Positions 7,549-38,829 of a stretch of 64,000 nt of DNA are shown here, one piece after another. The notes under the pieces were generated by a model. The model did no database searches. It saw only the letters and a list, made by a program, of their open reading frames with translations, and was not told where the DNA came from. A program made the translations under genes and the position numbers. Source of the stretch: Okamejei kenojei (Eukaryota); assembly GCA_035221665.1 (NCBI GenBank), contig CM069147.1, positions 20,336,001-20,400,000 of the forward strand, in the 5' to 3' direction. Every line of letters begins with the position of its first letter. Within the stretch, counting starts at the first letter, position 1.

Positions 7549-7619
7549 CTTGCCAAACTGTTCCACCAAAGGGTCCATGTAACCGAAAATGATGCCTTTT
7601 TTCACCTGTCCCCCCCCAT
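7549..7619 (-). CDS. Gene A leader exon (garbled)
   Basis: Copy of 31132-31186 (gtaccttgccaaactg...gatgc...ttcac); boundaries approximate. Confidence 0.55.
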
Positions 7620-14361: not shown

Positions 14362-15975
14362 GTCATAGAGTCATACAGTGGAAACAGGCCTTTTCGGCCC
14401 AACCTGCCCACACAACCGACCAACATGTCCCAACCACACTTCTCCCACCTGTCTGCGTTTGACCCATATCTCTGCGCCCTATCCATGGTACCTGTTTAAA
14501 TGTTTCTTATTACCGACGTTGGGATCTCACTGCATCAACGAATATGCAGTACTCGGGAAGATCTGTCAGCTATTGGGATAGTACCCCCCCTAACCCGCCT
14601 CAAATACTTCCTCCAGCAGCTCTCGTTCCATGTATGCACCCGCCTTTGTGTGAAAAGGTTACCCCTCGGGTTTCTATTAAATCTTTCCCCCCTCACCTTA
14701 AACCTATGTCATTTGGTTCTTGATTCCCCTACTCTGGGTAACAGGCTCTGTTAGCCTATCCAATCTATTCCTCTCATGATTTTGTACAACTCATCCTATT
14801 GTGCAACAAGGAATAGAATCCAAGGCTGCTCAACCTCTCCCTATAGCTCTGGCACTCATGTCCAGGGCAAACATCCTCGTAAATCTTCTCTGCAACCCTT
14901 TCCCTTTTCCCAGCTTGACAACATATTTCCTAAAACAGTGCCCAGAACTGAACACAATACTCCTAAATACGGTCTTACCAATGTCTTATATCACTGCAAC
15001 ATGACCTCACAACGTCCCTATACACAATACTCTGTCTGATTAAGGCATATATGTGCCAAAAAGCCTTTTTTGACCACTCTACCTACCTGTGATGCCACTT
15101 TCAAAGAACTATGTACCTGCACTCTCAGGGAGGCACCATCCTGCACTTATGTAGGTCTTGCCCATGTTAGTCTTGCTATAATGTACCACCCCCGCATTTC
15201 TATTAAATTCCATCAACCATTCTTCAGTTCCACTTGACTAATGATCAAGATCCTACTGTAATTTTTTGATAACCATCTTCACTAACCTATACAAATCCAT
15301 TTTGACTATCGCTAATCATCCCACGTCCCATCTAGAGGAATTTTCTATCCTATCCCTCAGAATAATCTCCAGCAATTACCATCCACGGATGATAAGATCA
15401 TTGGCCTGTAGTTCCCAGCCTTTTCCCTGCCAGCTTCTTGAATGAAGCACAACATTTGCCACCATCCAGTCTTTGGACATCTCGCTTGTATTTAAAAATG
15501 ATGATTCATAAATCTCTGCCAGGGTCCTGCAATTTCCTCTCTAGCTTCCTAGAGTCCCTTGGATATATCTGATCAGGTCTGGGAAAATTTGTCTACCTTC
15601 ATACCCTTCATGATATCCAGCACCTCTTCGACCCGTAATACTGACTGCTCTCAAGATACTTCCAGTGACTGTCCCCAAGTTCCTCAGTTTCTCCTGTCTT
15701 TCTCCATGGCTAAAAAAATAGGAGAAGTATCATTTGAGGACCTTGCCCATCTCACGTGGCTCTACCAGAGTTGACCCTTTGATTCCTTATATGGATCCCT
15801 CACTCTCTGGTTCCCCTTTTGTCCCTTGATGTACTTATTAAAAATCTATTGGGATTATCCTTAATGCTATCTGCCATTGATATTTCCTGTCCCCCTTTTT
15901 GCCCTTCTGATTTTCTTTTTTAGCTTACTCCTTAGTCCCGAAACTCTTCCAGTGATACACTTGATCCCATCAAAC
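14362..15975 (-). mobile_element. Degenerate CR1 LINE (RT region plus 3' end)
   Basis: The paralogous copy 36993-38570 translates as REKAGNYRPMILSSVVGKLLE and LERVQRRFTRMLPG. Confidence 0.85.
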
Positions 15976-16241
15976 CTGACTCTTGATTCTGTCAAAAAAT
16001 ATTATTATCTTGTCGTATCTAGGGGAAGATGTAGATTTGGCTTTTTTTTTCCATTTTCGTTTCATTATCCCATCTGGAAGCGAAGCTTTGTAAACTTGTT
16101 TAATTCAACCCTCTACTGTTTACAGTAATGGCAACATGTTTGATGACAATAAAGCGCTCTGGGACCAAAAGCAGTTTTAAAACACGTGTTTCCCTGTGTT
16201 TCTCTAGTTGTTTTTTTTTGTTAAGCAGCTGATCTCTTCTT

Positions 16242-17751
16242 TTTTTTTTTAAATTTAAAAATATAGATTTTGTTTAATTGGAAACAATGTACAGTAGTAT
16301 AAACCGTGGGTAACATAATACATTTCTTGTAATACTTCTTGTTTTAAACATAATACTAGAAAAGTAACAGAAGTAAGAAAAAGAGGAAAAGGAGAAAGTT
16401 AAGTAAAGTGGTGATATTAATAGTTCGTGAGAGAATAGAGAAAAATAACCCAAAAATATGTGAAGAGAGAGAGAAAAAAAAAGAGAGAAAAAAACCCAAA
16501 AAATATAAATAAAAAATAAGAAAACAAAGCAGAAAAAAAATAAAAAGAAAGAAATGGTCTCCAAATCTGAGGAAGGACATTATTGCCATAGAGGGAGTGC
16601 AGAGAAGGTTCACCAGACTGATTCCTGGGATGTCAGGACTGTCTTATGAAGAAAGACTGGATAGACTCAGTTTATACTCTCTAGAATTTAGGAGATTGAG
16701 AGGGGATCTTATAGAAACTTACAAAATTCTTAAGGGGTTGGACAGGCTAGATGCAGGAAGATTGTTCCCGATGTTGGGGAAGTCCAGGACAAGGGGTCAC
16801 AGCTTAGGGATAAGGGGGAAATCCTTTAAGACCGAGATGAGAAAGACTTTTTTCACACAGAGAGTGGTGAGTCTCTGGAACTCTCTGCCACAGAGGGTAG
16901 TTGAGGCCAGTTCATTGGCTATATTTAAGAGGGAGTTAGATGTGGCCCTTGTGGCTAAGGGGATCAGAGGGTATGGAGAGAAGGCAGGTACGGGATACTG
17001 AGTTGGATGATCAGCCATGATCATATTGAATGGCGGTGCAGGCTCGAAGGGCCGAATGGCCTACTCCTGCACCTAATTTCTATGTCTATGTTTCTATGAA
17101 AGAGGGATATACCTACTTCATAACTTTCCACACCCCTCACCCGGTTGTGAAACAGTTAATTTCCGGGGTTATGTTGCACCATATACTTGTAAGAAGTCGA
17201 TAAAGGGAGACCAAATCTTTAAGAATTGGTCTGGTTTACCTGCTAGGACGAATCTCATATCGTCAAGATGTAACAGTTCAGACAAGCTTGAAATCCACAT
17301 TTTAAGCGTTGGGGTGGGTGGCTTTTTCCAGAATTTGAGTATACGTTTTTTTGCCGTTATCAAACCATAATTATGGAGACAATTTTGGAACGAAGTCAGC
17401 TCAGAGCCGGCTTCTATTACAAAAAATAATCAGTTCTGTATTGGGGACCAATTTTATTTTAAATAATTTTGTGAAATTTTCAAAAATGTCTTTCCAAAAT
17501 GTATGGAGTTTTATGCAGGAGACAAAGGAGTGTGCTACAGTTGCATCATGAGATAAACACTTATCACAGATGTGAGAAACTTTTGGAAACAATTTATTCA
17601 ATTTAGTTTTCGAGTATTATAGTCTATTTTGAATTGAATTAAGGTATGTCTTACGTATTAATCGAACATTTGTGTACATATAGCAAGTATTTATCCCATC
17701 TGTCTTTCGAAATTTTTACAGATAGTTCTTGTTCCCACTCTCTTTTGATTG
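16242..17751 (-). mobile_element. 5'-truncated L1-type LINE with poly(A) end, long flanking duplication and a nested CR1
   Basis: ORF2 C-terminal Cys-rich motif ICDKC..ATVAHSFVSC..LHTFW and AKKRILKFWK..F.KIWSPF; T-run at 16240; flanking direct repeat CTAGTTGTTTTCTTTGTTAAGCAGCTnATCTCTTCTT. Confidence 0.75.
16554..17098 (+). mobile_element. Young CR1 3' fragment nested in the L1 3' UTR
   Basis: Intact 134-aa ORF2 C-terminus (QRRFTRLIPGM...RTRGHS...WNSLP); tail ttctatgtctatgtttctatg. Confidence 0.9.
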
Positions 17752-18729
17752 CACGTTCCCTCGTGTTTATCTAGTTGTTTTCTTTGTTAAGCAGCTCATC
17801 TCTTCTTGCAAGCATATTAACCGACAGATTATTTCTGATTTTTTTCAGCTGGAATTACTTTAGTGTTTCGAAATGCCCCTCTCTTGTAGTAACCGATAAC
17901 ACAGGGGAATGTCAGGATATTTATCCAATTATCAATTTTATAATGATTGCCAATGTAACAATAAGTGGTTAGTCCTTCTGCGTTGCAATAGAAAGATTGG
18001 CACATTTAAAACTTGTTTTGAATCGATATCAAGATAATTGTTTCGTAATTCTTTTTTTCCAGAATGTACACGGCGCGCAATTACCAAACATAAAATTCGC
18101 AGAGCAAATATTTAGGTATCAGAAACAGGGTCTCAAATAAATTACTTAAATTAGACTTCTTCCACTTCAGCGTCAAATTGGATGCCGCGAGCAGTTTGTA
18201 ACTTCAGATCATCGTACTCTTTGACCACAGCGAGTTTCCATGATGTCACCAGCAGATTCAAGGTACATTACTCTTATGGGTTACTTACTTTAACCTCGAG
18301 CTATGAATGTATTTATGGTGGTTCATTGGCTATATCATCTTTTTATAGAGAAGTTGCAAATGTGCGTACTCTGGCTACAGCGAATTACAGACAGAAGCTG
18401 AAGTTTGAAGAAAGGTCTCGACTGGAAACGGCACATACGCATCTGCGACGCTGTCTGATCCGCTGAGTTACTCCAGCACCATGTGTCTTTTTTAAATTTC
18501 CTTCCAGAGGACATACCCTTTCCAATCGCAATGGAACAAGAATCAAAAAAAGACACTTACAAAGGACCAGAATAAATTGAAAAGAAGGCTGACAAGCACG
18601 CACGCACAGATTTAGATAGAGACATGCACACATGTATTTAAACGCATACGTTTTACGGCAATGTTTTCTCAAAAATATACAAAACGCCAACTTTCATTGA
18701 CACACCTTTAAACCATTTAAAGAAAATAC

Positions 18730-20400
18730 GCAGAACGTGCTTTACGGGAAGATAAAGGTCTTGCAAAGTGCGTTTAGGGAGTTCCACAAATGTTTAAAAA
18801 AATGACTTAATGAGTCCTATCTCAGGATTCATGCGTGGGACCTGTATAGGAAACATTGATCGATCTGAACTGGAAGGGAACGAAGATCAGAGAAGAGAGG
18901 ATTACTCAAGCTACTTGGAAGTGTTTAAGCTAACTTGGGAAGGGAGAAGGTCGGTGGAAGCATAGAACCAGTGCAACAACTGGGGTGAAATTTGCGCAGG
19001 ACAAACCAAGCAAGCCCAACGGGCAGAGTAGAGGGTGGCAGGTTCGCAAGCCGAGGAGACTTAGCAGGCTCAACAGCATTTACTTTAATGCAAGGTGTCT
19101 CATTGGCAAGTCAGATGACATTAGAGCATGGGTCAGAACTTGGAATGATGACTTTATTGCAATCACATAACTGTAGGTGAGGGAAGAGGGAAGGACAAGA
19201 CTGGCAACTTAATGTTCCAAGTTATACAACTTTCAGGTGTGAGAGAGGGTACTGAAGAAGAACAGGGGGGTACGTTTGCATTGCATGTTAGGCAGAAAAT
19301 AACTAGCCCGTTGGGAGGATATCCTGGAGGGTTCACCCAATGAGGCCATATGGATAGAATTTGGGAATAAGGGAGGAGCGATCACTTTGCCAGAGTTATG
19401 TGATAGGCTTCCCAGTAGTCAGGAAAAATGAGTGGACCAGCAAGCTGCCAAAGTTTGTTATAGTGGTCATTTTCATAGGCTCAATCTTAACTGGAATGTC
19501 CTGATTGTCAAGGGTTTAGATGGGTAGAAATTTGTTCAGTGTGTAATCTACATTTTGTGAGCCAATATATTATTGGGCCTGTCAGAGATGAGTCAGTACA
19601 ATGCTCGACATTATCTCAGGAAAGCAAACTGGGTAGGTGGCGGAAATGTTGGTGGATTGAGACTTTTTGAACAGTGAAAATTCAGAAATGTTCAAGTTAT
19701 TTATGCAAAGGGATCAGGTTGTTCCTTAAATTCGAGCAAGGCTTGTTTCAATCGCATAACTAGAACTTGACGAATGTAGACTGCGCACAGATGTGTGAGG
19801 TAAAACAACAACTGACAAGTGGAAGTCTTTTAAGGGACAATTAACCAGACTTCAGCTTCAGCAAGTTCTAATTAGCGTGAAAGCAAAGATGGCAAGGCAG
19901 GAGATACCTGTGGCCCAGGCAGAGGTGTCAGTACCTTCATTCTTCATTGGTGACTGTCCAAAAGATGGAAGGATAACTACTACTCTTTCACTTAGGAAGA
20001 GCACCAAAGATAAGCCGGCAATTACAACTGTTGTGCTTTACTTCATTAATGAGGGACATTAATGAGGAAGGTCTTAAGAGATATGATTTATGTACATTTG
20101 ATAATTCAGGTATTTATTAGGGATAGTCGGTAGAGCTTTGTGCGGGGGTAAATCCTGCCTCACTAATTTGATTGATTAGAATTTTATGAGGTGAGAACTA
20201 AACAGTTCATCAAGGCGGGATTGTAGGCATTTTTTTGATGTGAACTTCACTAAAGCATTTGACATGGTTTCACATTGTAGGCTGGTTCAGGAAATTAAGA
20301 CACATTGGACCCAATGTAAGCTGGCTAACAGCATCTGAAATTGGCATGGTGAAAGTAGACAGTTTGTAGTGGCGGAAAGCTACATTTCTGACTGCCTTGG
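18730..20400 (+). mobile_element. Old CR1 LINE remnant (endonuclease to RT)
   Basis: SIYFNARCLIGKSDDIRAWVRTWNDDFIAIT resembles the CR1 APE endonuclease N-terminus; copy at ~41400-43100. Confidence 0.7.
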
Positions 20401-23400
20401 CAATTAATTCCACACAACCATGGCCTTCTGTATGGAAATAAAACTTTCCCTCACTTCTCCTTTAAATTTAACTGGTGTCAACTTAAACAATGCTATTTAA
20501 TTCCAGACTCTCCTGGTGAAGGAAATGACTACCTATTGTCCTATCTATGCTTCTGATAAATATATAAATCTTAATGTGTTCACGCTCAATATCATAAACT
20601 TCAGTGAGAATAATCCAAGTCAACACAATTTCTTCTTCTATCTACTGCTTACCGTTCTCGACATGATCCTTGTGAAACTATTCTGCAAACTCTCTATGGC
20701 TACTATATTTTCCTGTGGTGTGGTGATCAGAACTGTATGTAGTACGCCAAAGGTGATCATAAACAGCACATGCTTACTAACATGTTTCAGTGCTTTATGC
20801 TCCCACTGCCTTCCAGGCAAAACCTATCTGTATTTTATGTTTTTCCTTCCATGTTCTTGTTCATGACATATTACTTACATGGATACATTTAGCTCTAAAA
20901 AATACTCAAGAAACACAACATTATTCAGGATAAAGAAACACTTCTCATTGATACCCATTCACCAACATAAAATGAATAGTCTCCATTACTGTTGCATCAT
21001 AGCTGCAGTGGACCACGTTGATGGAAATATATTGCAATTCCTTCAGCTATTTCCTATCGAGGAGTATTGTCAGGAGATCTTTCACTTGAAGGGGCAATCA
21101 TGGAAGGTGACCTACCAATTTTACACGGTATTTAAAGAATTCCTCAGTTACAGGTGCTTAGTTATGTTGCAGTTGCTCAAGACATTAGTGAGGCCACGTT
21201 TGGAGTATTGTCTTCAGTTTTCATCACCCTATTGTAGGGAATGTTATTGGTGCAGACATGTTTTACGAGGATGTTGTCAGGAGTAGACGGGGGAGGTTGA
21301 GCAGGCTAGGACTTTATTCCTTGGAGTGCAGGAGAATGAGGAGTGATCTTCTACAGATATATGATCATGAGGGGAATAGATAGGGTAAACGTCTACTTTG
21401 TCAAACCTTAAAAATTCCATTAGGCCACCCAATTACATTGGTTATTCATGCAGACAAGCCCAAATCAATGTTTTATTTCTGGATAAGTATTGCCTCATTT
21501 TGTACACTGTACTCCAGTTCAATCCACTTACCTTATTCTTTTCAGCTTTTCAATTCTGTCCGAGTAAAAATGAACGGTGCCATGTTCATGGCCCCGTTAA
21601 TATCTATTCGTAGATTGGTGTATTAATGCTCGCAATAACTAGGCATTATTTGGTATTTATCTTTCCAGGAATGTTGGCATCATCAACGAATCCAGCATTT
21701 ATTGTCCGTTCCCAGTTGCCCTGAGAAGATGGACATTATCCACAGGCTTGAATAACTGCATTTCTTCATGTGAATGAACTGGGAAGGAAGCAATTGGGAA
21801 GGAATGCAATTGGGAAGGAAGCACTCAGATTTATAAGTAAATCTGATGATGAAAAAAACAGCATTTTTTAAAGTTAGGATGGTTGCCAGATCCTGATGCC
21901 ATGCTGCAGTTTAGGTTGGTAGATGGGAAGGTGATCAAGGCTGGTGTTGAACTTCTTCAATGTTTTTGGAGTTGGATTTATCCAGGCAAGTAGGTTAAGC
22001 TTCGGCATGCTCTTAGATTATGAATGGGCTGTCAGGAGGAGAGTCATTTCAAATCACCTGAGCAATTTAAGCATTCTTTAAAGAATACTGCTTCATACCT
22101 ATCTAAATCAAAAACTAATTAGCTATTAAATGGCCATTCTTGTACGTGTATTTAGTTCCTGGATTTTACTTCATTTTACCATTAGATTTAAACAAATCTG
22201 ACATTGCGAACTACAAACAATTTGTTGCATTTGATTATGGCTCATTTATACTTTCAATATCCATCCAATTTCATGTAATTAGCAGTTGAAAACGTCCACA
22301 TCAAGGGATACTATTACAAAAGTGATGTCAATGCATAAAATGGTTAAGTTACAACTTATCTGTTACAAGTCATTAAGTCGTAAATTCAGACAAACTGATA
22401 GAGCATATTTAATAAGGACTCAATATCTATAAAATTGATTCATTGCTCAAAATATATATTCTAAGAATTAATTTCTTACCGATATCATTTTGTGGAAGAA
22501 ATTAAAAATTTAGAATGAGTTAAATTTAGAATGAGTTTGGCATAAAATTAGATCTAATAAACACCAGTGAATAATAGTTTTTACAACCTTTGAACTTTTA
22601 AAATTTTCAAGGCATAACTCTTTCCTGTCAAGATCACAGTTTATTTTTCTAATCTCGTAGTTTATTTCATGCCACATTTGAAGTTTATGTCAGTTTTGCA
22701 TTTATATATCTTTCTGGAAGAAAGGGACTGAAAAAATATACAAATTCAAATGGATGCAAACTAATAGTTACCAGTATCTTTATATCAGATCTAATTTCGC
22801 ATATTCATTATAATTTAATTGAAAACGATTTGACAGGAAATAACTTGCCCAATATATGTTTTGAGCAGTGGATTAAGTTTATAACCTTTGCCTCCTTTGT
22901 GAAATATTCTGCGCTAATTAATTTGGATTCAACATTTGTGGTATCATTTGAATCAGGCAGGCGGGTTGCAGACATCGGAGTCATGGTGACTTAAGTCTTT
23001 AATCACCAGCCTCAGGCATGCTGAGGTGGTGGAATGATGGGAGAGCGCAACATCCAAGTGCTGGAGGCACCGCCCAAATGGAAAAGGTTCACGATGCTAA
23101 ATTGCAGAAAATGGATTTGACAAAGTCTGTAGTACTTCGCTGAAGCCACAAGGTGGAGCCCGCCTCTCATGCAGCGAAAAGAGCCTCTCTATGGCAGATA
23201 GAAGCGATTTTTTTTCTGATGAAGGATGCAGAAGAGCTAGACATCAGTTTGGAATTGGGATCTTGCCTTTCAACAACAACATCGGGAAGCATATTTTTAT
23301 TTAGGTATTTGTAAAACCTGGACTCGTCTCCCTGAACAAAGCTAGAATTACTCGGCCAATTGCAGCTTTTAAGACTGAGACGGTGGTCTGGTTTTGAGTA

Positions 23401-23440
23401 AACAGTGCAATTTTTCAGTATAATACGTTTAGGTTCAGTC

Positions 23441-23585
23441 AGGGGTAGGAGATTGCAACCTTCACGTGGTCCGCCCCGTTTCGACGAATGCAATCAACCT
23501 GGCGTGCACATTCAAATAAGATCACATAGAACAAGTTGTCCTACAACTTTAGGCTGTGCACGCCACACGCCAGAAGAAGAAGAAT
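23441..23585 (+). mobile_element. Short interspersed repeat with (GAA)n tail in the 3' UTR of gene B (copy 46127-46270)
   Basis: Ends in agaagaagaagaa; TTCAGTCAG occurs on both sides (possible TSD). Confidence 0.45.
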
Positions 23586-23607
23586 AAGCAGATTCAGTCA
23601 GTTGTTT

Positions 23608-23617
23608 CTAGCATGAT
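23608..23617 (-). CDS. Gene B terminal coding exon (RSC*)
   Basis: Acceptor gttttgtttctttgacAG; phase 2; TAG at 23608-23610. Confidence 0.65.
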
Positions 23618-26600
23618 CTGTCAAAGAAACAAAACATTTAAAGTTTATATCAACTGAATTATGTGATAAGTTTCTCGACCCCTTACGGTCTTACCTGTTT
23701 CCCATCACATGCTTGGAGGTCTTTCCATGTTCCTCTCTGCTCATTGTTTGCTCTGATGTCTCGACCAATCGGTCAACCTTTACCACGGAGCCTAGACGGG
23801 GAGATCAATTAATTGGGTACTATAGTGCAGATTTGGCGATCGTGAGTTATTTTGAATGTTAACATATTTTCTTACACCACTCATGTTATTATGTGCCGAC
23901 AAGATATCCAACGGGCGCCGATTCCCTATTGCCCATTTTGTGCTCCAGACTAAAATCGATTTGTAGCCTTTGTCTCCAGATGGGTTCAAAGTCAAGGTGA
24001 GTGAATCATTACTAAATTATACTCTGAATAATACCCTGGACGTCAGTTTTGAAGACATTCCCAACGCTTCATCGGACAGGGATCAGCCTCGGCTGGGCTC
24101 CACCCTTCAGAAGTAAAAACAATGGGATGGGGACCAATTCGGGCAGATGCAGGAATTATAACATTCAGCGGAGTCCCGACTGACCACAAACATGAAAGAA
24201 GGAACGGCAATAGTGCCGACAACTTTTACATCAAACGATTGGGAAATAACCAATTTATCCAATATGCATTGGCCCAAGATAAGCAGTTGCACAGAGCTGT
24301 AACTTGAGGAAGGAAACCGCTGCAAGTGGCGACATTTATTTTCCCATTAATATAATCGTTTTATAACAGTTCGATTAGAAGACGGTATTGTTATCCTTGA
24401 TATTAACGATGATGAACAATTTATTTTTCTAAGCTCTTTCAATGCCCTCTTTTGATTTGGGATTTTTACAAGTGAATTTGGAACACTGATGATAGCGGAG
24501 ACTTGACGGAATTGTTCTCCTCTGAGTCTGGGGATGGAGAACTGATATATTTCTGTACCATTTGGGGATCACGATCTTGTTATTAACTGTGTAAATTGTG
24601 GCCAAATAGCATCAATTCACGTAGCGCCATTTGATTCTCCGCAGCGCCATTTTACAGGAAAGTTGAAATTGAACTCTAGAATGAAGCTTGATTCACCTTT
24701 GGCAGAGCTTGATCCAAAAACAATTCGCAAGGTAGCCAACGCCAGTAAAATGATCAATGTACCTCCTACATTGCGAAGGACATGGACAACGCGAGCCGAA
24801 CCTGCAGACGTAAAAAATAATTGAGCGATAAGACAATTATCTCAAGTGAATGAACAAACTATAGAATTTTATTTGTGTAAAGAGCTTTATCAAGTGTCAC
24901 TATATTACAAAAATATCCAAATAAAATAGCAATATTAGGCAAATGGCCACTGTACAAAATAAACGCGAGATCTTGCTTCCAATATGAACAATATTGTTAT
25001 TGCATTAAATGTCAACGAGTGGTACATTTCCAAGTCAAGCTAGTGTGCGATTTGGAAGGCAGCCTGCAGGCCGTGGTGTTCACATGCACCTGCTGCCCGT
25101 GTCCTTGTTTGTGATCCAACCAATCCAGAAATCTATCAATGTCAATCCTCCCTTTTCAAACATCCTCAATGCTTCGAGGTAGTGAATTACGAAGATTCAC
25201 ACATCTGAGTAGAGTCATAGAGTCACAGAATATTACAGTGTGGAAACAGGCCCTTTGGCCCAACTCGCCTACACCGGCCAACAGTTGGCCAGCTACCCTA
25301 GTCCCACTTACCTGTGCTTGGTTCATAACCCTCCAAACCTTTCCTATCCATGTACCTGTCCAACTGTTTCTTAAACGATGGGATAGTCCCAGCCTCAACT
25401 ACCTTCTCTGGCAGCTTGTTCCATACACCCTCCACCCTCTGCGTGAAAATGTTACCCCTCGGATTCTTATTAAATATTTTCACCTTCACCTTGAATTAAT
25501 GTCCTCTGGTCCTCGATTCCCCTACTCTGGGTAGAATCTGTGCATCTAGCCGATCTATTCCACTCATAATTTTGTATACTTCCATAAGATCTCCTCTCAT
25601 CCTCCTACGCTCTATGGAATAGAGACCCAGCCTACTTAATGTCTCCCTATAGTTCACACCCTCTAGTCATGGCAACATCCTCATAAATCTGTTTAAGAAG
25701 GAACTGCAGATGCTGGAAAATCAGAGGTAGACAAATATGCTGGAGAAACTCAGTGGGTGAGGCAGCATCTATGGAGCGAAGGAAATAGGCAACATTTCAG
25801 GCCAAAACCCTTCCTCCTCGTAAATCTTTTCGGAAACCCTTTCAAGATTGACAATATATTTCCTATAACATGGTGCCCAGAACTGAACACAATATTCTAA
25901 ATGTGGTCTCACCAACGTCTTATACAACTGCAACATGACTTCCCAACTTCTATACTCAATACTCTGATGAAGGCCAATGTGGCAAAAGCCTTCTTGACCA
26001 CCTTATCTACCTGCGATTCGACCTTCAAGGAACCATGCACTTGTACTCCTAGATATCTTTGCTTTACAACACTACCCAGAGGCCTACCATTTACTGTTTA
26101 GGTCCTGCCCTTGTTCAACTTCCCAAAATGTAACACCTCACAATTTAATACAAATTCCATCAACCATTCCTCTGCCCACCTGGCCAAGCGATCCAGATCC
26201 TGCTGCAATCGTTTTCAACCTTCTTCACTCTCTGCAAAACCACTAACTTTTGTACCATCAGCAAACTTGCTAATCTTGCCCTGTATGTTCTCATCCAAAT
26301 CATTGATGTAGATAACAAACAGTAACGGGCCCAGCACCGAACCCTATGGCATACCACCAGTCACAGGCCTCCATTCTGAGAAGCAACCTTCCACTATCAA
26401 CCTCTGTTTCCTGCCATGGAGCTAATTTGCTATCCATTCAGCTATCTCTGCTTGGATCCTATGAGATCTAACCTTCCAAAACAGCCAACCATGCGGCACC
26501 TTGTCGAATGCCTTATTAAAACATCTACAGCTCTGCCCTCATCAACCTTTTTGCTCACGGCTTAAAAAAAAAATCAATCAGATTTGTGAGACACGATGTC

Positions 26601-29600
26601 CCATGTACAAAACCATGCTGACTGTCCTTAATCAGCCCATGCCCATCCAAATGCCTGTATATCCTATCCCTCAGAATACTTTCCAGTAACTTACCAACTA
26701 CAGATATTAAGCTCACCAGCCTATAGTTCCCAGCATTTTCCCTGCAGTCCTCTTGAAAAGAGGCACAACATTGTGCATACCTTTTGATTTTAAAGCAAAA
26801 CTGATCTGGGTAAAACTGACAAGGCCAGCACATCCAGTATTCCCAATTCATGCTTGTCCTTCACAATGTGGCAGTGAGCAGCCTTTGTGAATCACTGCAG
26901 TCCTCTCAGTGAAGATAATTCCACAGTGTTATTGAGTAATGAGTTCCAGGATCAAATCCAAGCGACGATACGGACGATTTATTTACAAGTCATTACGGTG
27001 TGTGACTCGGAAGGGAATCTGCAGGAGATGGCGCGTTCCTATGCACCTGTTGCCCTTGATCATCATTTTCAAAAACTCTATTGATCTCAGCTCTGAAATA
27101 CAAGATTATGGATCTGCGATGTTCCGAGGTACGGAATTACAAAGATTCGCGCATCTCTGGGAAGTGAAATTTCGCCTTAATATAAACGTTAAAAGCCGAC
27201 TTCCTGTCTTAAAGAAAATATGTCTTGTTCGGAGCATTCTCCTTCCCCATTCGTCATATTATGTCCCTTTGTAGTCGAGAGTTGAATGTTTACTTGCAAC
27301 ACCACTGTCAAGTGCCTGAAAGTTTGCTGTTTCACACGCACGATATATATTAAACGTATAAAATAATCTCACGCAGTTCTAATTGAGAAAGTATAGCGCT
27401 AAATTATGCATTAGGCTGCTTGCACATCGATATTCTCTCGTTTCCCTGATCGCTGACCAGTCTGAAGAAGGGTGTCGACCCGAAACGTCGCCTATCTCCT
27501 TCGCTCCTTCGATGCTGCTGCACCCGCTGAGTTTTCTCCAGCTTTTTGTGTAACCCTCGATTCTCCAGCATCTGCAGTTTCTTCGTTAACACTTTGTCTA
27601 TTCTACTGTGAATATATAGGTTAACGTTTACTACTCCACGTACAGTATTCGGCCTGATGTCATTTCTAAATCGGATCGGAGGTCTCCCTCTGTTCCCAGC
27701 TCTGTTTGCCTGTCTTACCTGGCTTGACGGTGTAGTCGACTCTGGCCGCGACCGTAAGGGAGACATGTGACACTAGGCAGGTGTAAATATCAACGCGCCA
27801 GGTAGGCTTCGTTACTTCGAGAAAACTGGAAGCCACATACAACCCCTCCACGCTACTGGTGTTCACAGGTTCTTCCCCGGTGAAAATTGTTACACCATTT
27901 CTTTGCCAGGATATTTTCACTTCTTTCGGAAAAAAGGCAGCCGTTTGACACACAAGTTTTGGCGGCGAACTGCCATTAACTTGGCTAATGCTCAATGGAG
28001 TTGGCGGAGCTGTAACAGAAGAAACAAAAAGTTATGTTGTATGTCTTCTTTCCATGTCAATGAATACTTTGTCGTACCGCTTGTGAAGACATCGCAGTAT
28101 CAGACTGGATAGGCTCGGCTTGTACTCGCTAGAATTTAGAAGATTGAGGGGGGATCTTATAGAAACTTACAAAATTCTTAAGGGGCTGGACAGGCTAGAT
28201 GCAGGAAGATTGTTCCCGATGTTGGGGAGGTCCAGAACAAGGGGTCACAGTTTAAGGATAAGGGGGAAGTCTTTTAGGACGGAGATGAGAAAACCATTTT
28301 TCACACATGGTGAATCTGTGGAATTATCTGCCACAGAAGGTAGTTGAGGCCAGTTCATTTGCTATATCTAAGAGGGAGTTAGATGTGGCCCTTGTGGCTA
28401 AAGGGATCTAGGGGTACGGAGAGAAGGCAGGTACAGGATACTGAGTTGGATGATCAGCCATGATCATATTGAATGGTGGTGCAGGCTCGAAGGGCCGAAT
28501 GGCCTACTCCTGCACCTATTTTCTATGTTTCTAAGTCCACATGGGTTATCGGTACGTTCACTTTTAAACTAATGGAGTTTATAGTTCGTCTTACCATGGA
28601 CAGTAAAATACATTCAAGGAATACATAGGAATGTGATGTTCGATATAAGTAATATGCGGATAATGTCCCATTGTTCTGAATGGAAGAGCCAGATTTAGCG
28701 CGCCGTAGAAGCTAGCAGCAATGTTTAGTAATTACATCAGCAATGACTGTGTTTAACATACTTGTTTCAAAGAATGATACAGGCCCGGTGTCGCCTTCAC
28801 GCTGACTATTAAACTCCTATTAATTAATCCAATTTTCCCGTCGCACCCATATCAACTGTCCTCATTCTTCACCGCCACAATCAATTATCAAGGGATAATT
28901 TACAGCTGGTTACCCTACCAACCAGCGAAAAGTTGGCAATGGATACGTTAGCGTAGCAACGGGGAAAAAAACAGGAATTTGCGAGATTATTAAACTGCAC
29001 ACAGACTAACGAATCCAGCCCTGTATATATTCACATCTCGCCAATGCATATGGTCTAGGGGCAGGGTTTGGCTTCATCTATCGATCTGAGGTTTGTCCCC
29101 ATAATAGTTCAGAGACTGGGATTGAGAGTTTAGATGAAGTAACTTTCACAAGGAAAACCTTTTTCCAGGCCGCGATATACGGTATGATTGTATATGGTAT
29201 GATTGAGTTATACTGACAATTGGTTGATAATAACAAATAAAGGTGATAGAACGTGCAAGCGACTTCCAATGTCACAACACATTTCATCTATATCTACTGC
29301 CTTTTCTAAATTTGCTCGATATATTGAACACATTCCATCTAAGTAAGATTCTATTGAACCGAACTCCATGTTTGTCATTTACGAGCACTGATATTTCTCA
29401 GTTAAATCTACAGTCAGTGTTTAGCTGGAAGGACAGCCTCTTGCTAAGGTGTATTGGGAGTTTAGTACAAACAATCTGTTGAACATCTAACTTTTAAATC
29501 TTCTTACATTCCGTTTTTGTACTAACAAGTTATTGAATACGGATCATTATTGTCTTCGGAAGAGAGTTTTGTGTTTATTCTCAACCTCAGCGAGTGCACT

Positions 29601-31186
29601 ACCAGCTAAAACTCAGAGTTTCTCCATGGCACAAAAACAGATTATTTTATGTGGAATAAATATTTGTTGCGAAGTTCAGTGACAGCGTCGTTTTACTCGC
29701 AAGCATTTCAATCGAGGGTCGTGTAAATGGAAACCACGAGTTGCAAGGACAGGAGCACGGGTGGTTCCTCAAAAGACCACATTCTGTTCGTGCTTTACAG
29801 ATATTTGGCGGTGAAATAAAAATGGTCGAATACACACAAATACACAATGAAGAATTGGGTGACGTTTAGGGTCGAGACACTTCTTCAGTCTGAATCGTCA
29901 CTCTTTCCTACTCTCCAGAGATGCTGCCTGTCCCGCCGAATAACTCCAGCATTTTTTGTCTATCCAAATCATGAGAGCTCCCTTTATTCACCTGTTTCCT
30001 GACTTTAAGGATAAAACTAATAGATTTCGGAAAATTCGTTATAACAAATACTGGGTAGACAATTTGTAGCGGTTGCGTCAAAAATGATAAGAGTGTGTGT
30101 GGACTGTGGGTGGACACTCTTGTGTTGAGGTTGTCGTCACGGTTGGCCTGGAATGGTGACTTTTCATTATACTTAAAAGAGCCGACCCAGACTCAATGTG
30201 TTAAAATTACTCCCGTGAGGAAAAAGCCGCCATACTTCCCACAGTCCAGATTAAATATCCAAGTTGCTTGAACATCTTCCCTGAAAAACAATGCAGTCAC
30301 TGAACACCATGGGAATGACGAAGAGTGAATCTGAATCGTGGGCGATCGCAGCGCGACTCCACAGAAGGACAAAGGAAAAGGCCCTCTGGGAGCACGAAAC
30401 GAGAACAACCCTCCCTCGCCACACACATGCTGCCCGATCAGCTAATTATTTCCAGACATTTCAATTTTCAAGTCGGCGGAGTGGTTTGATTTCATAACAA
30501 AAAATCCATTATTAGTAATCATCCAGTTTTAACCCAGTGATAAAATGTAATGTTATTCACATTAGAGAGCTTAATTTATACTACAGAGAGCTTAAGTTCT
30601 CTCCGTCATGGGATACTTACCAATTACAGTGAGCCTGGAGCCAGGTCCATCTCCGATAGATTGCTGCTGATGTTTCACTTTACAATAATAAACCCCGGTG
30701 TCCGCTACATTTGCATTCAGGAGAACAAAATCTGCACTGCCCTTTTTGGTATAAATTATTTTTCTGCTGTCTGGTTCTATAAATGTCTTCTCTCCCCATC
30801 TCCACCAGTAAACATCAGGAGTAACTTGTTGTATTGAGAACGTGCAGAACATGGATGCATTGCCTCCTCTGTGGACGGTCAGGTCTTTCGGGAATTGGTC
30901 CACTTTGGTCGAAGTCACTTCGTTGGCTGCCAGAAATCAAGGAAAAATACTGAAAACAGTTTCACAAACTGGACAAGGAAAATTAATCAAGAGTTGAAAA
31001 TTACAAAAGTAAATTAGAATTAGCGACAAGCGAGCTGGAGAAGCACTGTAACTAAATTCGCAGTGGGTAATTAATGGAGTATTCTAAAACAGAATTAAAT
31101 ATGATGGTCGGGCACATATATCTAAAAGTACCTTGCCAAACTGTCACCAGAAGGGTCATGTACCGAAATGATGCTTTCACTGTCAT
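23608..31186 (-). CDS. Gene B: VJ-C1-TM Ig-superfamily receptor, activating type, 287 aa (chimeric). Exons 31132-31186, 30621-30926, 27719-28009, 24697-24801, 23695-23791, 23608-23617
   Basis: All introns GT-AG; phases 1,1,1,1,2; 864 nt in frame from MTVKASFRYMTLLVTVWQA to ...KHVMGNRSC*. Confidence 0.85.
23695..23791 (-). CDS. Gene B cytoplasmic exon (GSVVKVDRLVETSEQTMSREEHGKTSKHVMGN)
   Basis: Acceptor tctccccgtctAG and donor GTaag; 97 nt, phase 1 to 2; open frame with no Tyr. Confidence 0.75.
24697..24801 (-). CDS. Gene B TM exon with Arg (GSARVVHVLRNVGGTLIILLALATLRIVFGSSSAK)
   Basis: Acceptor tttttacgtctgcAG and donor GTgaat; 105 nt, phase 1-1. Confidence 0.85.
25210..26772 (-). mobile_element. 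CR1 LINE truncated by the duplication junction, with a nested Penelope-type short repeat (~25690-25815)
   Basis: GNYRLVSLISVVGKLLESILRDRIY...SQHGFVHG; the longer copy at 47912-49736 continues past the breakpoint. Confidence 0.85.
27437..27598 (+). mobile_element. Penelope pLTR-type short insertion, specific to copy 2
   Basis: TSD TATTCT (27431-27436 and 27599-27604); empty site cgatattctactgtg at 3361; hammerhead core 27462-27489. Confidence 0.8.
27719..28009 (-). CDS. Gene B C1-set Ig domain exon
   Basis: LVCQTAAFFPKEVKISW...GLYVASSFLEV...YTCLVSHVSL, containing the Ig/MHC C1 signature YxCxVxH; 291 nt, phase 1-1. Confidence 0.93.
28100..28532 (+). mobile_element. CR1 LINE 3' fragment
   Basis: ORF 28120-28347 YSLEFRRLRGDLIETYKILKGLDR. 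Confidence 0.88.
30621..30926 (-). CDS. Gene B V-set exon with germline-joined J-like G strand
   Basis: KVDQFP...SMFC...VYWWR...DTGVYYC...GDGPGSRLTV; 306 nt, phase 1-1, AG/GT intact. Confidence 0.95.
31132..31186 (-). CDS. Gene B leader exon (MTVKASFRYMTLLVTVWQ)
   Basis: ATG plus 55 nt, phase 1, donor GTactt; homologous exon in gene C. Confidence 0.8.
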
Positions 31187-31212
31187 ATTTCAAGAAAGTT
31201 GTTGGCCGCTTG

Positions 31213-31311
31213 TTGCAAATGAGGGAAGTTTTCTAAAAGATTCTTGCAAGAAAGAGTTGCTGGTGAATACATATTTTCCGCTTGTGACCATGACATAGGA
31301 TGTCACATGAC
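31213..31311 (-). promoter_or_regulatory. Putative proximal promoter: ETS (ACTTCC), octamer-like ATTTGCA and E-box GTCATGTGAC
   Basis: Motifs retained in order in the diverged gene C upstream region (53501-53541). Confidence 0.45.
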
Positions 31312-31599
31312 GGTGAAGTGGGTGTCAAATTTGGTGCAATGTTGGTGGAGTGCTAGTATGAGCGAGGGTCCGCCCCCACTGCCAAGTGAACAGTTTCCAT
31401 CGGGGTACAATTCTCTCTCAGACTTCCCTGGGTCCATGTTGAAATAATTTACTGACCATTCAGAAGAGAATCGCAGATCTTCCTCCATCCTCCATCCAGA
31501 GGAAGGGAGGAAGGGGGGAGGGGGGAGGGGGAGGGGGGAGGGGGGAGGGGGGAGGGGGGGGGGCTCACTCAATATAAAAGAGCAAATTTGTGCTTGGAG

Positions 31600-33360
31600 T
31601 CGGGTTGAAGCAAGGTACTAAACGAGTACATTGCATCTGTATTGACCGAGGAGAAGAGCACGGAAGACGGTGAGTTCAGTGTTGAGAATATTAATATCCA
31701 ATTACACATTTTGGATTAAGGTACTGGGGGTTTTAAAAAAACATTAATTTGGATAAACCCACAGGGCCTAATGCGATAAATTCCAAGTGATTGAGAGAGG
31801 CAAGAGCGGAAATTGAAAGAGCCTTGACAAAGATTTTTGCATTTTATCTAGCTACATACAATGTTCTGGAGGACTGCAGAGTAGCTAATGTTGTTCCACG
31901 GTTTAAAAAGTGAAGTAGAGGGAATCTGACTAATACAGGCCTGTTGCACCTCACGTCCATAGTAAGGGGGGGGGGGGGGGGGGGGGGGGGGCTATTGGAT
32001 AGGATTCATTTGGATAGGATTTACTCCCATTTGGAAGAGAATATCAAGGGGTTTCATTTAGACCAGTCAGCATGGCTTTATACGTGACAGGTCATTTTTT
32101 ACTAACAATCCAGATTTTTTGAAGAGGGAGCAATGGTGATCCATGAAAGCAGGATAGTGGATGGCATCTATGTATATTTTAGGGATGCATTTGATGAAGG
32201 CTGATCCAAAAGATCAGAATCTTGTGTATTAACAGAGGATTAACAACGATTTGATTGTATGGATTCATAAATGGCTTACTAATAGAAGGTAGTGGTGGAA
32301 GAACGATATTCAGCCTGGAGGTCTGGATGATCTATTCTACATTTTTGTTGTAGTCCGTCCCCTTTGATATCTTGTTTTCACACCTTACCCTTACATATCT
32401 TTGTGTCTCCCTCTCCACTGACTCTCAGTCTGAAGAAGGGTCTCAACCTGAAATGTCACCCATTCCTTCCATCTAGAGTTGCTGCCTGTCCTGCTGGACT
32501 GAGCCTCACATCAGTGATACAACAGCTATTGGAGTGGATTATTCGGGAGAGGCTTTATTTGTATTTGGAAGAAAATGGGCTAATTAAAGACAGTCAGCGT
32601 GGCTTTGTACTTGGAAGGACATGTATTATGACCCTGATTGGTGTTTTTGAGCAGGAGATGAAGGTGATTGATCTGGGTGGGGCAGTGGATGCTGTCTACA
32701 TTTATTTTTAGCAAGACATTTGAAAAAATCCCTCATGGTAGGTAATCCAGAAGATGAAAGTGCTTGGAATCCAAGGTGATGTGGTTGCTTGAATTCAGAA
32801 CTGACTTTCTCAGAGAAGACTGAGTGCTGTGATTGTAGTGAGTTATTTTGGCTGGATGTCTGTGACCAATAAAGTTTCTCAGGGATCTGCACTGGGATCT
32901 CTGTCATCTGCAATATATAAAAATGATTCGCAAATAAATGGGTTGGTTAGTAGTTTTCAAATAATACCAAAATTGGGAAACTTGTGGAAAAGAGGTTGGC
33001 AGTCAAATTATATAAGAGGGATTATAATCAGTTGCAGAAATGAACGGAGAAATGGCAGAATGAGTGTGCAAGTGTGGTGCACTTTGGGAGGTCAAATGTA
33101 AGGGGAAAGTATACACTCAATGGAAAGTGCCTCAGCAGCATCGATATACAGAGGGCTCTCGGGCTCCTAGTCCATAGCTCCCTGATAAAGGTAATACAAG
33201 TAGATAAAGTAATAAATAAAGCATCTGATATGATTGCTTGCATCAATCAGAGCATTGAATAGAAAAGTCAGGAAATCGCGTTTAATTCAACTTGGCATCA
33301 TGTTCGGCATGGCCATTATGGGATCAGGGCCTGTTCCTGTGCTGTACTTTTCTATGTTCT
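31600..33360 (+). mobile_element. Degenerate CR1 fragments with a nested Penelope pLTR piece (~32340-32495)
   Basis: LIKDSQRGFVLGRTC...AVDAVYI, VSQGSALG and VHFGRSN peptides; hammerhead-like core 32430-32457. Confidence 0.75.
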
Positions 33361-33664
33361 AATGTGTTGCTATTAATTTAAATGTATTTCGTTTGCAATA
33401 AATTTGCAAAATCAAGATTTGCCGAAAAGTCTTCTCTACCAGATTAGTTGACCCAAATTAGGAAGAAATAATCCTTCAATGATGCCACTCACACTGCCAC
33501 CCAACGTGGTCTGCTCAATGATTTGGTAACTGCAGGACAGGGATAAATTGTTAGTCACTTCTAGAATTCAGGTACCTCCGGTTGCTTTGCAAATCAAAAA
33601 ATATAACGAGCTGCCAAGGGAATTGGCAGAAATGGGTATCATTATGACATTTAAATACAACCCA

Positions 33665-34015
33665 GACAGGCTATAAGGTCATAAGTGATGGGAGTAGAAT
33701 TAGACCACTCAATCTTCGCTGATCTATCTCTCCCAACTAACCCCATTCTCCTGCGTTCTCCCCATAACTGTCACCTGTACGAATCAAAAATCTATCTATC
33801 ACTGCCTTAAAAATATCCACTGGCTTGGCCTCTACAACTTTTTGTGGCAAAGAAATCCACAGATTCACCAGCCTCTGACTTAAAAAAAAAAATCCTCATC
33901 TCCTTCCTAAACGAATGTCCTTTAATTCTGAGTCGGTGACCTCTAGTCCCAGACTCTCCCACTAGTGGAAATGTCCTCTCCACATCCACGCTATCCAAGA
34001 CTTTCACTGTTCTGT
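33665..34015 (-). mobile_element. CR1 3' fragment
   Basis: LDSVDVERTFPLVGESGTRGHRLRIKG. Confidence 0.8.
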
Positions 34016-34539
34016 ACATTCCATTAACTGTGGTCATCAATCTGCCATTCTTTGCAATAGTTTTTCCACTTACTTTGTGATTCTTAATATCATCAAAACC
34101 AGAATCAAATATTTGGTTGTATTTACTTAATAAGAGGAGATGGATAATGAAACATGGATGATTTGCCAGTCTCACTTGCCAGCACCTGTTTCATGTCCCA
34201 AAAAAATATTTCCTCTCACTGCACCTGCCTGTCCTTTAACTGTCTCAATTATTTCTGCCTCAGCAGCTTCCTCCCACATCTCTTACACGTATGCACCACA
34301 TTTTGTGTGGTCCTCAGGTTCCATTAAATCTTTTCCATCTCTATAATACTAAAACTCTTCCTATTGTTTGTGTTTGTGCTGGCGAGGTGCCCATGATGTT
34401 TCAATCTGCTTTTCCTATCTTCTTCCAAACGCTAGGCCACAGCCTTCCCATTTTCGCATATCCTACTCACATTTTTCCCGTCAAGGGGATAATCACCTTC
34501 CTGTCGCATTCCCGCCTATATTTCCAAAGTTATTCATCC

Positions 34540-35665
34540 TTTAAATTTTAAAAACAGCCCCAAAATCTCACCCATTTCAGAAAAAAGAACCCGAGTGACG
34601 TCACAATGCACTCGGAAGGCAGGGCGGGACACTCCAGGAGGGAAGGGCACTCCAGCGCTCGCGGTGAATGAGGAGTGGCAGTGGCTGCAGGCGCCCAATG
34701 TCCAAACCTGGTGGGGAGGGTGGTGCTGGGGCTGGAGTGAGAGCAAAGCCTGGGGCTTTGGATGGGGCCATGACAGGGTCCGAGAAAGAAGCTGCCGCTG
34801 GAACCAAGGACGAGCCTGGGTCCAGCATCAGGGACGAACCCAGAGATGAAGTCCGGGCCTGGACTGGAGCCCAGGCAGCGGCCGAGCTGACGGCTGGATT
34901 CTACAGCCAGGGCCGGGCCGAGTATGCGAACCAGGCCGGGTTCTAGGCCCTGGCGCCGCTCTACAACCTGGGTAGGTGCTGGGGCAGGGAATGGGAGTGA
35001 TGCGAGGAGGATGAGGGAAATGATGAGGAAGGAGATGTGGTGGGGAGTGCAGTGGTTGAGGGAGATGGAGTGGGGGTGTGTGCAGGAGGAAGATGGGGAA
35101 GGGTGGAGGAGAGAGATGCCCCCTCCCTATCTACCATCACTCCCACCCTCTCTACCCCCTCCCTCTCCCTCCTTCTCCCCCCTCTCCCTCTCTACCCCTC
35201 CCCCCTCCCTCTCTACCACCCCCCCCTCTCTACTCCATCCCTCTCCATCTCCCTCAACCATCCATTCCTTCCACTCTACCCCTCCCTCTACCCCTCCCTC
35301 TCTCTCTATCCCCCTCCCTCTCTGCCCCTCCTCTCTACCACCCTCCATCTCCCACTACCCTCCCTCTCTACTCCCCCTCCCATCCCCCTCTCTACCCCCT
35401 CCTTCTCCCTCTCTACCCCTCCCCCTCCCTCTCTACCACCCCTCCCTCTCTACCCCCCTTCCCTCTCTAGAGATTGAAGAGGGTGAAGAGGAGGAAGAGG
35501 GAGTGCTGGGGGATGAGGAGAAATGAGCCACACCTGCGCAGTTGGGGACTATGCGTGAGTGGTGCAATATTGCGTTGGGGGAACGGCTTGCGTTGGGGGA
35601 ACGGGTGAGTGGTGGAATCTTGCGTTGGGGGAGTAGACCCAATGGGTCTGCACTTGGTCTGGTCT
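34540..35665 (-). mobile_element. GC-rich non-autonomous repeat with C/T low-complexity core
   Basis: 5' end AGACCAAGTGCAGACCCATTGGGTCT (hairpin GACCC-ATT-GGGTC), shared with 60233. Confidence 0.55.
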
Positions 35666-36992
35666 TACATTAAAACTGTGCCCTCTAGTATTTCTGACTC
35701 CCCCGTCCTGATGAAAAGTTTGTGGCTGTTCACCTTATCTATGCTCGTTGTGATTTAATATATAGACCTCTAAATGGCCAGATAGGTCTCCAACGCTCGT
35801 GGGAAAATGATCAAGCCAATCCTCATTGCTCAAAGCCCCCAGATTCAATAAATACATTATAGCTCTAACTAACCCAATATTGAATCTTATAGAGAATTGC
35901 ATATTAATGAATTGTGCCAATTTAGAAAAGTAAAACCAGATTCATACATGTCATTGTTAAGGGGAAATCAGGCTGATTTCTCAAAACATAGCCCCACAAT
36001 GTCGCGGCCGTCATCATTAATGGCTGTGAATTAACCCTCTAATCTAATTTTGTCTAATCATCCACGTTTGTGCAGGTGACAACATTACAAACTAGAAGTC
36101 TTGGTTTCCCTGCAGAACGAATGACCAACAACAGCAATCCCAATTAAGTATATCCTTTACAAAAACAATCCCGTCCTGATGCAGAGTTTGAGGCAGAAAC
36201 GTCGACTATCTGTTTACACCCACAGAACCTGCTCGACCCGCTGAGCTCTCCAGCAGATATTTGCTTCAGATTTCAGCACCCTCGAACAAGTTCTTCCTGC
36301 CTCCTTCACCCATACGTGCTTCTTCTCCTCCCTCCCTTCCCAGTTAGCTTTTCTCTCTCAATCTCCAGCGGTTTTCTCAAGAAAAATGGGCGAGTGCCAA
36401 GAGACGCTTGTTGTCCCTATTCCTGCTATTGTCTCAATCACCAATGCAGATCAGCATCCGTATATAATGAACTATTTCCAACGTTGGGATCTCACTGCAT
36501 CAGCGAATATGCAGTTCTCAGGAAGATCTGTCAGCTATAGTGTTGAGCTTCACCCAAAAAAGTGCGATTAACCAAAAAAGTCAATCGGAAAGCCGAAAAT
36601 AAATAAAGAAAGGCAGCGCGGAGCAACCATTTCAATGCTTGCTCCGTACTTGAAAACACATACAAAAGCAGAGGATTTATTTCTGATTTCCGAACTAATG
36701 GCACTCCCATACGTAGGGATATGGAAGTTACGGAAGGGACCATAAAACCTTTGTTGAAGATGCGATCTTAACTGATGTCAACTGAACACTTCATCTGTCC
36801 ATTCATCTAAATCACAAATCACAGCGAAAAGGATTTCACCTTTCAATATGTTTCAAATGTTCTTTATTCCTATTTTCACCACTGAAACCTAACGACCTTA
36901 CTCTTGTTGAGAGACTCTGCAGTACACTCTTGCCAAGTGTTTTCTGGAAGTCGCAACAGCAAAATTCACTGAATCTCCAGAATTTTGAATTG

Positions 36993-38570: not shown

Positions 38571-38829
38571 ACTCTTGATTCTGTCAAAAATATTATTATC
38601 TTGTCGTATCTAGGGGAAGATGTAGATTTGGCTTTTTTTTTCCATTTTGTTTCATTATCCCATCTGGAAGCGAAGCTTTGTAAACTTGTTAATTCAACCC
38701 TCTACTGTTTACAGTAATGGCAACATGTTTGATGACAATAAAGCGCTCTGGGACCTAAAGCAGTTTAAAAACACGTGTTTCCCTGTGTTTCTCTAGTTGT
38801 TTTCTTTGTTAAGCAGCTGATCTCTTCTT

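What the first reader, a model, noticed from the sequence alone, without database searches (positions are those of the whole stretch)
24697..24801. Arg in the outer TM plus a Tyr-free tail marks genes B and C as adaptor-coupled activating receptors; the Arg aligns with the Cys of the other class
Seen: VVHVL-R-NVGGTLIILLALATL followed by a tail with no Tyr. Aligning on VGG puts R (CGC) opposite C (TGT) of GCVVGG/GCIVGG. Known: an Arg near the extracellular end of the TM mediates pairing with FcRgamma/CD3zeta in NKp30, NKp46, GPVI, FcalphaRI and LILRA/PIR-A, whereas SIRPbeta1 uses a central Lys with DAP12. Inference: signalling mode was switched by mutation within a homologous TM exon.
Basis: partly seen in the sequence, partly recalled or inferred. 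Interest (0 to 1): 0.7.

Follow-up and report, generated by a model that had tools for sequence, protein, structure and literature searches.

The report
Activating member of ray paired receptors
This exon encodes an arginine-bearing membrane anchor on two immune-type receptor genes of a cartilaginous fish, likely making them 'on-switch' partners of neighbouring 'off-switch' receptors; the principle is known from mammals, and the arginine most likely lines up with a glycine rather than the cysteine first proposed.

Summary
The 105-nt exon is real: intact splice sites, in phase, identical in genes B and C. Its Arg codon is unchanged in three related organisms, and all three candidate tails lack Tyr. 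B and C are V-C1-TM members of a large paired-receptor family. Arg anchors rarely carry ITIMs (5 of 23, against 31 of 51 neutral anchors), and the genome encodes both zeta-type adaptors. An activating role is likely but untested.

The Arg=Cys register is not supported: three profiles put the Arg on the preceding Gly (p 0.005-0.012; Cys column p 0.18-0.50), and the exon is too diverged to show descent from the neutral exon. Gene B itself is a chimera, A's ectodomain on C's anchor, from a tandem duplication that may be an assembly artefact. The proposed point-mutation switch does appear elsewhere in the family: neighbour G5 (Gly-to-Arg, ITIM exons destroyed) and 11 Arg variants scattered over the tree. 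This scan noted Arg-type members before in two other shark genomes.

The parts
24697..24801 (-). Gene B TM exon; Arg codon 24773-24775, second Arg 24725-24727
   Evidence: conserved in 3 related organisms
31132..31186 (-). Gene B leader exon
30621..30926 (-). Gene B V-type Ig exon (unsplit VJ-like)
   Evidence: Pfam V-set E 6e-9
27719..28009 (-). Gene B C1-set exon
   Evidence: Pfam C1-set E 3e-13
23695..23791 (-). Candidate tail exon of B (Tyr-free; copy in C at about 46383-46479); predicted only
   Evidence: acceptor score 3.7, strong donor
23597..23617 (-). Candidate last coding exon of B (stop within 6 codons in either phase); predicted only
   Evidence: best of 375 downstream AG sites, score 10.8
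26766..26776 (.). Fusion junction in the C1-TM intron of B: gene A intron joined to gene C intron with a 3-nt overlap
   Evidence: 98% to A side, 99% to C side
47388..47492 (-). Gene C TM exon, identical to B's
50086..53476 (-). Gene C leader (53476-53422), V (53020-52715) and C1 (50376-50086) exons
3475..7600 (-). Gene A leader, V and C1 exons; unreadable as assembled (homopolymer insertions); matches B at 40 of 45 sites where B and C differ
1346..1444 (-). Gene A neutral TM exon (GCVVGG); a tail exon with two Tyr motifs lies about 7.3 kb left of the window
2666..26772 (.). Tandem duplication unit 1
26770..49073 (.). Tandem duplication unit 2
   Evidence: 105 mismatches in 8623 aligned nt and a 406-nt indel in the cleaner part
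62008..62115 (-). Orphan neutral TM exon D (GCIVGG); no ectodomain exons found for it

Best explanation
Genes B and C encode V-C1 membrane receptors with an arginine near the start of the anchor and a likely short, tyrosine-free tail, and they likely signal as activating receptors by pairing that arginine with the aspartate of an FcRgamma or CD3zeta dimer. Gene C is likely the activating partner of the neighbouring tyrosine-motif receptor A: their ectodomain exons are close while introns, anchors and tails are not. The B/C anchor is an old, strongly diverged exon whose Arg most likely occupies the family's usual Arg column, the Gly just before the Cys; whether it descends from the old shark Arg class or from a neutral exon is unresolved. 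Gene B did not switch by point mutation: a tandem duplication fused A's ectodomain to C's anchor, if the assembly is right. Shown: exon structure, conservation, chimeric junction, family pattern. Inferred: splicing, tail, membrane position of the Arg, adaptor binding, activation.
For: Intact in-phase gene models. In 3 of 4 runs laid, one contig each covers the exon with Arg codon and splice sites unchanged, no indels, and 4 of 6 exon changes synonymous (p 0.059). Among 74 TM-bearing homologs, ITIM matches occur in 5 of 23 Arg-bearing and 31 of 51 neutral ones (Fisher p 0.0025; rows not independent, some models truncated). Geometry resembles the shark Arg class: Arg plus 15 uncharged residues, against 16 in 8 of 10 and 19 in 2 of 10. 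Two PF11628 exons with the TM Asp exist in the genome. Arg-Asp pairing is stated for NKp30 and NKp46 (PMC6514059, passages) and shown for Xenopus NxxR anchors (PMC2413239, passages). B versus C ectodomain pN 0.017/0.064 and pS 0.155/0.186, while their V-C1 introns share only 131 nt at 68%. Chimera.
Against: The core after the Arg is less hydrophobic (2.0) than in the shark Arg class (3.1-3.4), and the best 19-mer window excludes the first Arg. B/C lack the Asn of NxxR and the acidic end residue. B scores below zero on every extended profile (best -1.5; members of the original profiles scored +21 to +76 leave-one-out), and hhalign finds no significant match to either class (E 0.094 and 0.62; the control G5 also scores E 0.13 on the Arg class). 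Tail exons are predictions. Both Tyr motifs of A have Pro at Y-2, so they are not canonical ITIMs. A's ectodomain carries raw-read-type errors, so the duplication may be false.
Confidence: 0.6

Rival explanations
1. One reading: the B/C exon is a neutral-class exon in which the Cys codon itself became Arg.
For: In this register VGG, an 11-residue spacing to a cytoplasmic Arg, and exon position 10 match gene A. The batoid-only neutral profile prefers this column, p 0.038. One homolog, P0010, has Arg in the Cys column.
Against: Extended profiles give p 0.18-0.50 for this column. Six of 8 neutral-class Arg variants use the Gly column, 3 with Cys retained. True point-mutation converts keep strong neutral-class scores (+35 to +46), whereas B scores -11 or lower.
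Confidence: 0.12
2. The receptors do not couple to an adaptor: the first Arg sits at the outer surface, the helix runs from about Val12 to Gly30, and B/C act as non-signalling decoys or adhesion receptors that compete with inhibitory A.
For: The best 19-residue window is VGG...VFG. No NxxR motif, weak core hydrophobicity. Tails carry no motif.
Against: Arg is retained in 3 relatives. It fits the column used by Arg across the family, where it goes with ITIM loss.
Confidence: 0.2
3. Gene B is a false duplication made by the assembler from a chimeric long read; only C carries this exon. This is compatible with the best explanation for C.
For: Gene A's V and C1 have 48 insertions against B, 39 of them extending homopolymers. 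In 3 related organisms contigs start matching at 26769 with 884-943 letters before it unaligned, so none shows the B junction (the list of pieces is cut).
Against: The junction is sharp, with a 3-nt overlap rather than a shared repeat. The copies differ by 105 substitutions and a 406-nt indel over 9 kb, which alleles could also give.
Confidence: 0.4
4. The exon is a silent relic and B/C are unexpressed or secreted.
For: Strong divergence from both anchor classes and a long C1 branch.
Against: Intact leader, V, C1 and TM exons with canonical splice sites; low pN in the ectodomain; no disabling change in 3 relatives.
Confidence: 0.08

Closest known systems
Arg-type FcRgamma/CD3zeta-coupled receptors (NKp46, NKp30, GPVI, FcalphaR, LILRA2, PIR-A, OSCAR, Xenopus XFL TM1)
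   Same: Arg near the outer end of the anchor, short motif-free tail, neutral-anchor relatives with Tyr motifs in the same cluster (PMC2413239 section 6; PMC6514059 passages).
   Different: His instead of Asn three residues before the Arg, no acidic residue at the inner end, V-C1 ectodomain, tail probably on separate exons.
KIR activating forms derived from inhibitory ones
   Same: Charged residue gained in an otherwise similar anchor (PMC6557307, passage citing Abi-Rached and Parham 2005); this matches G5, P0021 and P0010.
   Different: KIRs use Lys and DAP12; the B/C anchor is not similar to its neutral neighbours.
Paired receptors with homogenised ligand-binding domains (KLRC, Ly49, PIR)
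   Same: Close ectodomains on dissimilar anchors and tails (PMC3210942, abstract); seen for A/C and for the pair L025/L026.
   Different: Different protein family; B is a whole-ectodomain fusion by duplication.
SIRP family (database names of several homologs are 'SIRP-like')
   Same: V plus C1-set ectodomain, paired forms; profile hit to a SIRPalpha structure, E 5e-21.
   Different: One C1 domain, outer Arg rather than central Lys; UrIg2 and antibody chains score as well or better.

Membership tests
Arg-type adaptor-coupled activating receptors (works like) | Arg within the outer part of the membrane helix | tested here: inconclusive
   19-mer window excludes it, 21- and 23-mer windows include it; geometry like the shark Arg class
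Arg-type adaptor-coupled activating receptors (works like) | Short tail without Tyr motifs | tested here: met
   three predicted tail models, no Tyr; no ITIM-exon homolog downstream; not confirmed by RNA
Arg-type adaptor-coupled activating receptors (works like) | Adaptor with TM Asp encoded in the genome | tested here: met
   2 PF11628 exons over cut-off; the labels CD3zeta (L042) and FcRgamma (L043) are recalled
Arg-type adaptor-coupled activating receptors (works like) | Physical association and signalling through the adaptor | not testable with these tools
   needs co-expression
NxxR TM module (LRC/XFL TM1) | Asn three residues before the Arg | tested here: not met
   His in B/C; absent in 10 of 10 shark Arg-class anchors too
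NxxR TM module (LRC/XFL TM1) | Acidic residue at the inner end (PMC6557307) | tested here: not met
   Arg in B/C; Asp or Glu in 8 of 10 shark Arg-class anchors
Neutral-class TM exon of this family | Detectable homology to the G-C-x-x-G exons | tested here: inconclusive
   no blastn hit; hhalign E 0.62; profile p 0.012 at the Gly column, 0.18 at the Cys column
Old shark Arg-class TM exon of this family | Detectable homology, Arg on Arg | tested here: inconclusive
   profile p 0.002-0.005 but score near or below zero; hhalign E 0.094
NCR3/NKp30 | Single extracellular IgV domain (PMC6514059) | tested here: not met
   V plus C1 exons
NCR3/NKp30 | MHC linkage | tested here: inconclusive
   the MHC II beta search rang nowhere
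SIRP | V-C1-C1 ectodomain and central Lys in activating members (recalled) | tested here: not met
   one C1 exon per gene; no Lys in the anchor
SIRP | Linkage to the SEP-domain gene NSFL1C (recalled) | tested here: inconclusive
   SEP matches on contigs C4 and C20, none on C17; the search may miss loci

The most novel reading that the evidence does not exclude
This cartilaginous-fish V-C1 family has a built-in one-base switch. The Gly codon before the anchor Cys turns into Arg again and again (11 scattered Arg variants needing 11 changes on the C1 tree, mostly at the column the old Arg class uses), coupled with loss of the ITIM tail. One cluster shows all routes side by side: point mutation plus a LINE insertion that kills the ITIM exons (G5), an old Arg anchor under a homogenised ectodomain (C), and a fresh duplication that grafts an inhibitory ectodomain onto that anchor (B).
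Probability: 0.4. Interest if true: 0.62.

Novelty: new member of a known kind. Interest (0 to 1): 0.42.

Why it matters
Paired activating and inhibitory receptors and Arg-mediated FcRgamma coupling are established, so the exon alone is modest news. If function is confirmed, it places this signalling logic in the oldest jawed-vertebrate lineage, on an unsplit V-C1 ectodomain that resembles antigen-receptor precursors. It also offers natural near-identical pairs (G4/G5, A/B) for testing directly how inhibitory receptors become activating. No paper on this family turned up, but three papers likely to bear on it were not held, so it cannot be called undescribed.

Tried and rejected
Complex prediction of the B anchor with two copies of the FcRgamma-like exon: no answer (score 0.02, mark 0.34, controls not folded); not used as evidence. 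RNA: no RNA holder listed; the laid runs were genomic-type contigs without splice joints, and run X7 laid nothing on the exon. Search of the own genome with a shark Arg-class anchor: no match, uninformative. MHC II beta search: nothing rang anywhere. A hit at 23926 resembling the shark Arg-class last exon was rejected because its acceptor ranked 368 of 375. Clustering of 4 amino-acid changes in 14 nt of the G5 anchor is not special: introns show windows with 4-5 changes. The V-domain tree was a quick tree with 12 proteins skipped and was not relied on. Papers not held: shark NCR3 (Kinlein 2021), primordial immune complex (Ohta 2019), B7/NKp30 evolution (Flajnik 2012). Paper searches returned nothing. 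No supplements were read. No trained TM-boundary predictor was available; Kyte-Doolittle values in the scripts are recalled.

Full report
Setting. The window is G000:C17:20336001-20400000. It lies in a cluster of minus-strand genes built leader-V-C1-TM-tail. The V query matched 24 places on C17 and the C1 query 26. Named homologs come from sharks, rays and a chimaera. On the C1 tree (41 rows) the cluster's genes group with ray proteins at 99/94 support, B and C on a long branch, so the organism is likely a ray or skate.

The observation. The exon 24801-24697 is real, in phase and identical in B and C. It carries Arg at exon residue 10 and a second Arg at 26, with 15 uncharged residues between. 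Kyte-Doolittle windows disagree on which Arg is buried. Contigs from 3 of 4 runs, from three related organisms, cover the exon with both splice sites and the Arg codon unchanged; of 6 exon differences 4 are synonymous, one is Ala to Val and one is Arg4 to His (p 0.059). The tail is not fixed by RNA. Read-through and the two best-supported downstream exon models are all Tyr-free, and the ITIM exons of neighbours have no homolog behind B or C.

Family pattern. Of 185 proteins held, 74 passed the filters (at most 520 aa, C1 motif, at least 30 residues after it, hydrophobic window). Two anchor classes dominate: a neutral G-C-x-x-G class, and an Arg class with an acidic residue at the inner end, whose named members are shark proteins. 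ITIM matches occur in 31 of 51 anchors without Arg and 5 of 23 with Arg (p 0.0025; rows are related and some gene models are truncated). Arg-class ectodomains do not form one clade (AU p 0.0001, 6 against 19 rows, quick tree; the group was defined by its anchor, the test run after a first tree was seen), so anchors and ectodomains have been reassorted. Eight neutral-class anchors carry an Arg: 6 on the Gly column (3 with the Cys still beside it), 1 on the Cys column, 1 further in; none has an ITIM. Eleven such variants, including three weaker or truncated cases added by eye (one of them, P0061, keeps an ITIM), need 11 changes on a quick C1 tree of 58 rows with few columns.

Testing the register. 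With both Arg fixed and the rest shuffled, B fits the Gly column on all three extended profiles: Arg class -1.5 (p 0.005), neutral -8.1 (p 0.012), Arg-converted neutral -9.1 (p 0.008). The Cys column gives p 0.50, 0.18 and 0.22. A batoid-only profile leaned the other way (p 0.038 against 0.096). All of these scores are negative, whereas clear converts score +35 to +46 on the neutral profile. hhalign gives E 0.094 (Arg class) and 0.62 (neutral) for B, against 9e-9 for G5 on the neutral class. DNA identity to 7 neutral exons is 29-39%, against 49-95% among them. So the Arg most likely sits one residue before the Cys, and the exon's ancestry is open.

Gene B is a chimera. Window 2666-26772 repeats at 26770-49073. 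Around 26770 the first 211 nt of a 421-nt probe match gene A's intron (98%) and the next 207 match gene C's (99%), overlapping by 3 nt. At 45 ectodomain sites where B and C differ, A agrees with B at 40 and with C at 1. B thus has A's ectodomain and C's anchor. A's copy shows 48 insertions, 39 of them extending homopolymers, typical of unpolished long reads, and three relatives show no such junction among the listed pieces. I give the duplication about 60% of being real. Independently of B, A and C look like a pair: close exons (V pN 0.017, pS 0.155, measured on B's clean copy), an unalignable V-C1 intron, and different anchors and tails. A's two Tyr motifs have Pro at Y-2.

G5 (anchor at C17:20446592-20446693) is the twin of ITIM-bearing G4: V 4 and C1 2 substitutions (plus one in-frame gap), TM 5 substitutions including GGA to CGA (Gly to Arg) and Cys to Trp. 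A 4.7-kb LINE-like insertion after the first tail acceptor gives an immediate stop, and both ITIM exons are frameshifted, while leader, V, C1, TM and the small middle exon stay open. Caveats: G4 and G5 share a non-canonical V acceptor, and G5 could be a decaying pseudogene.

Mechanism. The genome has two zeta-type adaptor exons with the TM Asp. Arg-Asp pairing with CD3zeta or FcRgamma is described for NKp30 and NKp46 (PMC6514059, passages). Xenopus NxxR anchors associate with FcRgamma (PMC2413239, passages and section 6; PMC4536121, one passage). B/C lack the Asn and the acidic end (PMC6557307, passages), so they work like, but do not belong to, that module. Activation from inhibitory ancestors (KIR) and ectodomain homogenisation (PMC3210942, abstract) are known. 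PMC12227049 and PMC10751288 (passages) mention non-rearranging VJ-C1 genes; the passages seen do not describe this cluster. PMC12272517 (passages) added nothing specific.

Verdict. A real feature and likely an activating paired receptor; the proposed register is probably off by one, and the origin by point mutation is unproven for this exon though common in the family. New member of a known kind; interest 0.42.

Noticed in passing
L009:645-6693 (G000:C17:20440645-20446693): Gene G5: twin of inhibitory G4 with Gly-to-Arg in the anchor and both ITIM exons destroyed, one by a 4.7-kb LINE-like insertion. The 5' part is about 95% identical to G4 but the tail remnants only 83%, suggesting recent homogenisation up to the insertion.
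   Followed up: yes
L025/L045 and L026/L046 (G000:C17:20633500-20685499): Inverted gene pair, 95% identical over about 2 kb of V and C1; one has a neutral anchor and at least 4 Tyr motifs, the other an unrelated Arg-bearing anchor.
   Followed up: partly
L031 and L038 against L030: Two genes with Arg in the Cys column of the anchor, next to a neutral paralog; one homolog of this type has a short Tyr-free tail.
   Followed up: partly
window 62008-62115 and L005 (window-relative 65090-65186): Orphan neutral TM exon D with a decayed ITIM-exon remnant upstream of it; no V or C1 exon found.
   Followed up: partly
window 3400-17700: Long stretch with raw long-read-type homopolymer errors; gene A's ectodomain should not be called a pseudogene from this assembly.
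   Followed up: yes
L006/L009, V exons of G4 and G5: Both lack the usual acceptor; the nearest in-phase AG follows a run of A.
   Followed up: no
G000:C17:20543099-20543200 (gene G8 anchor): Neutral-class anchor with a Glu near the inner end and a tail with one Tyr motif found.
   Followed up: no
P0005 and P0010 (Scyliorhinus): Near-identical V domains carry different Arg anchors: one old Arg class, one neutral class with Arg in the Cys column.
   Followed up: partly
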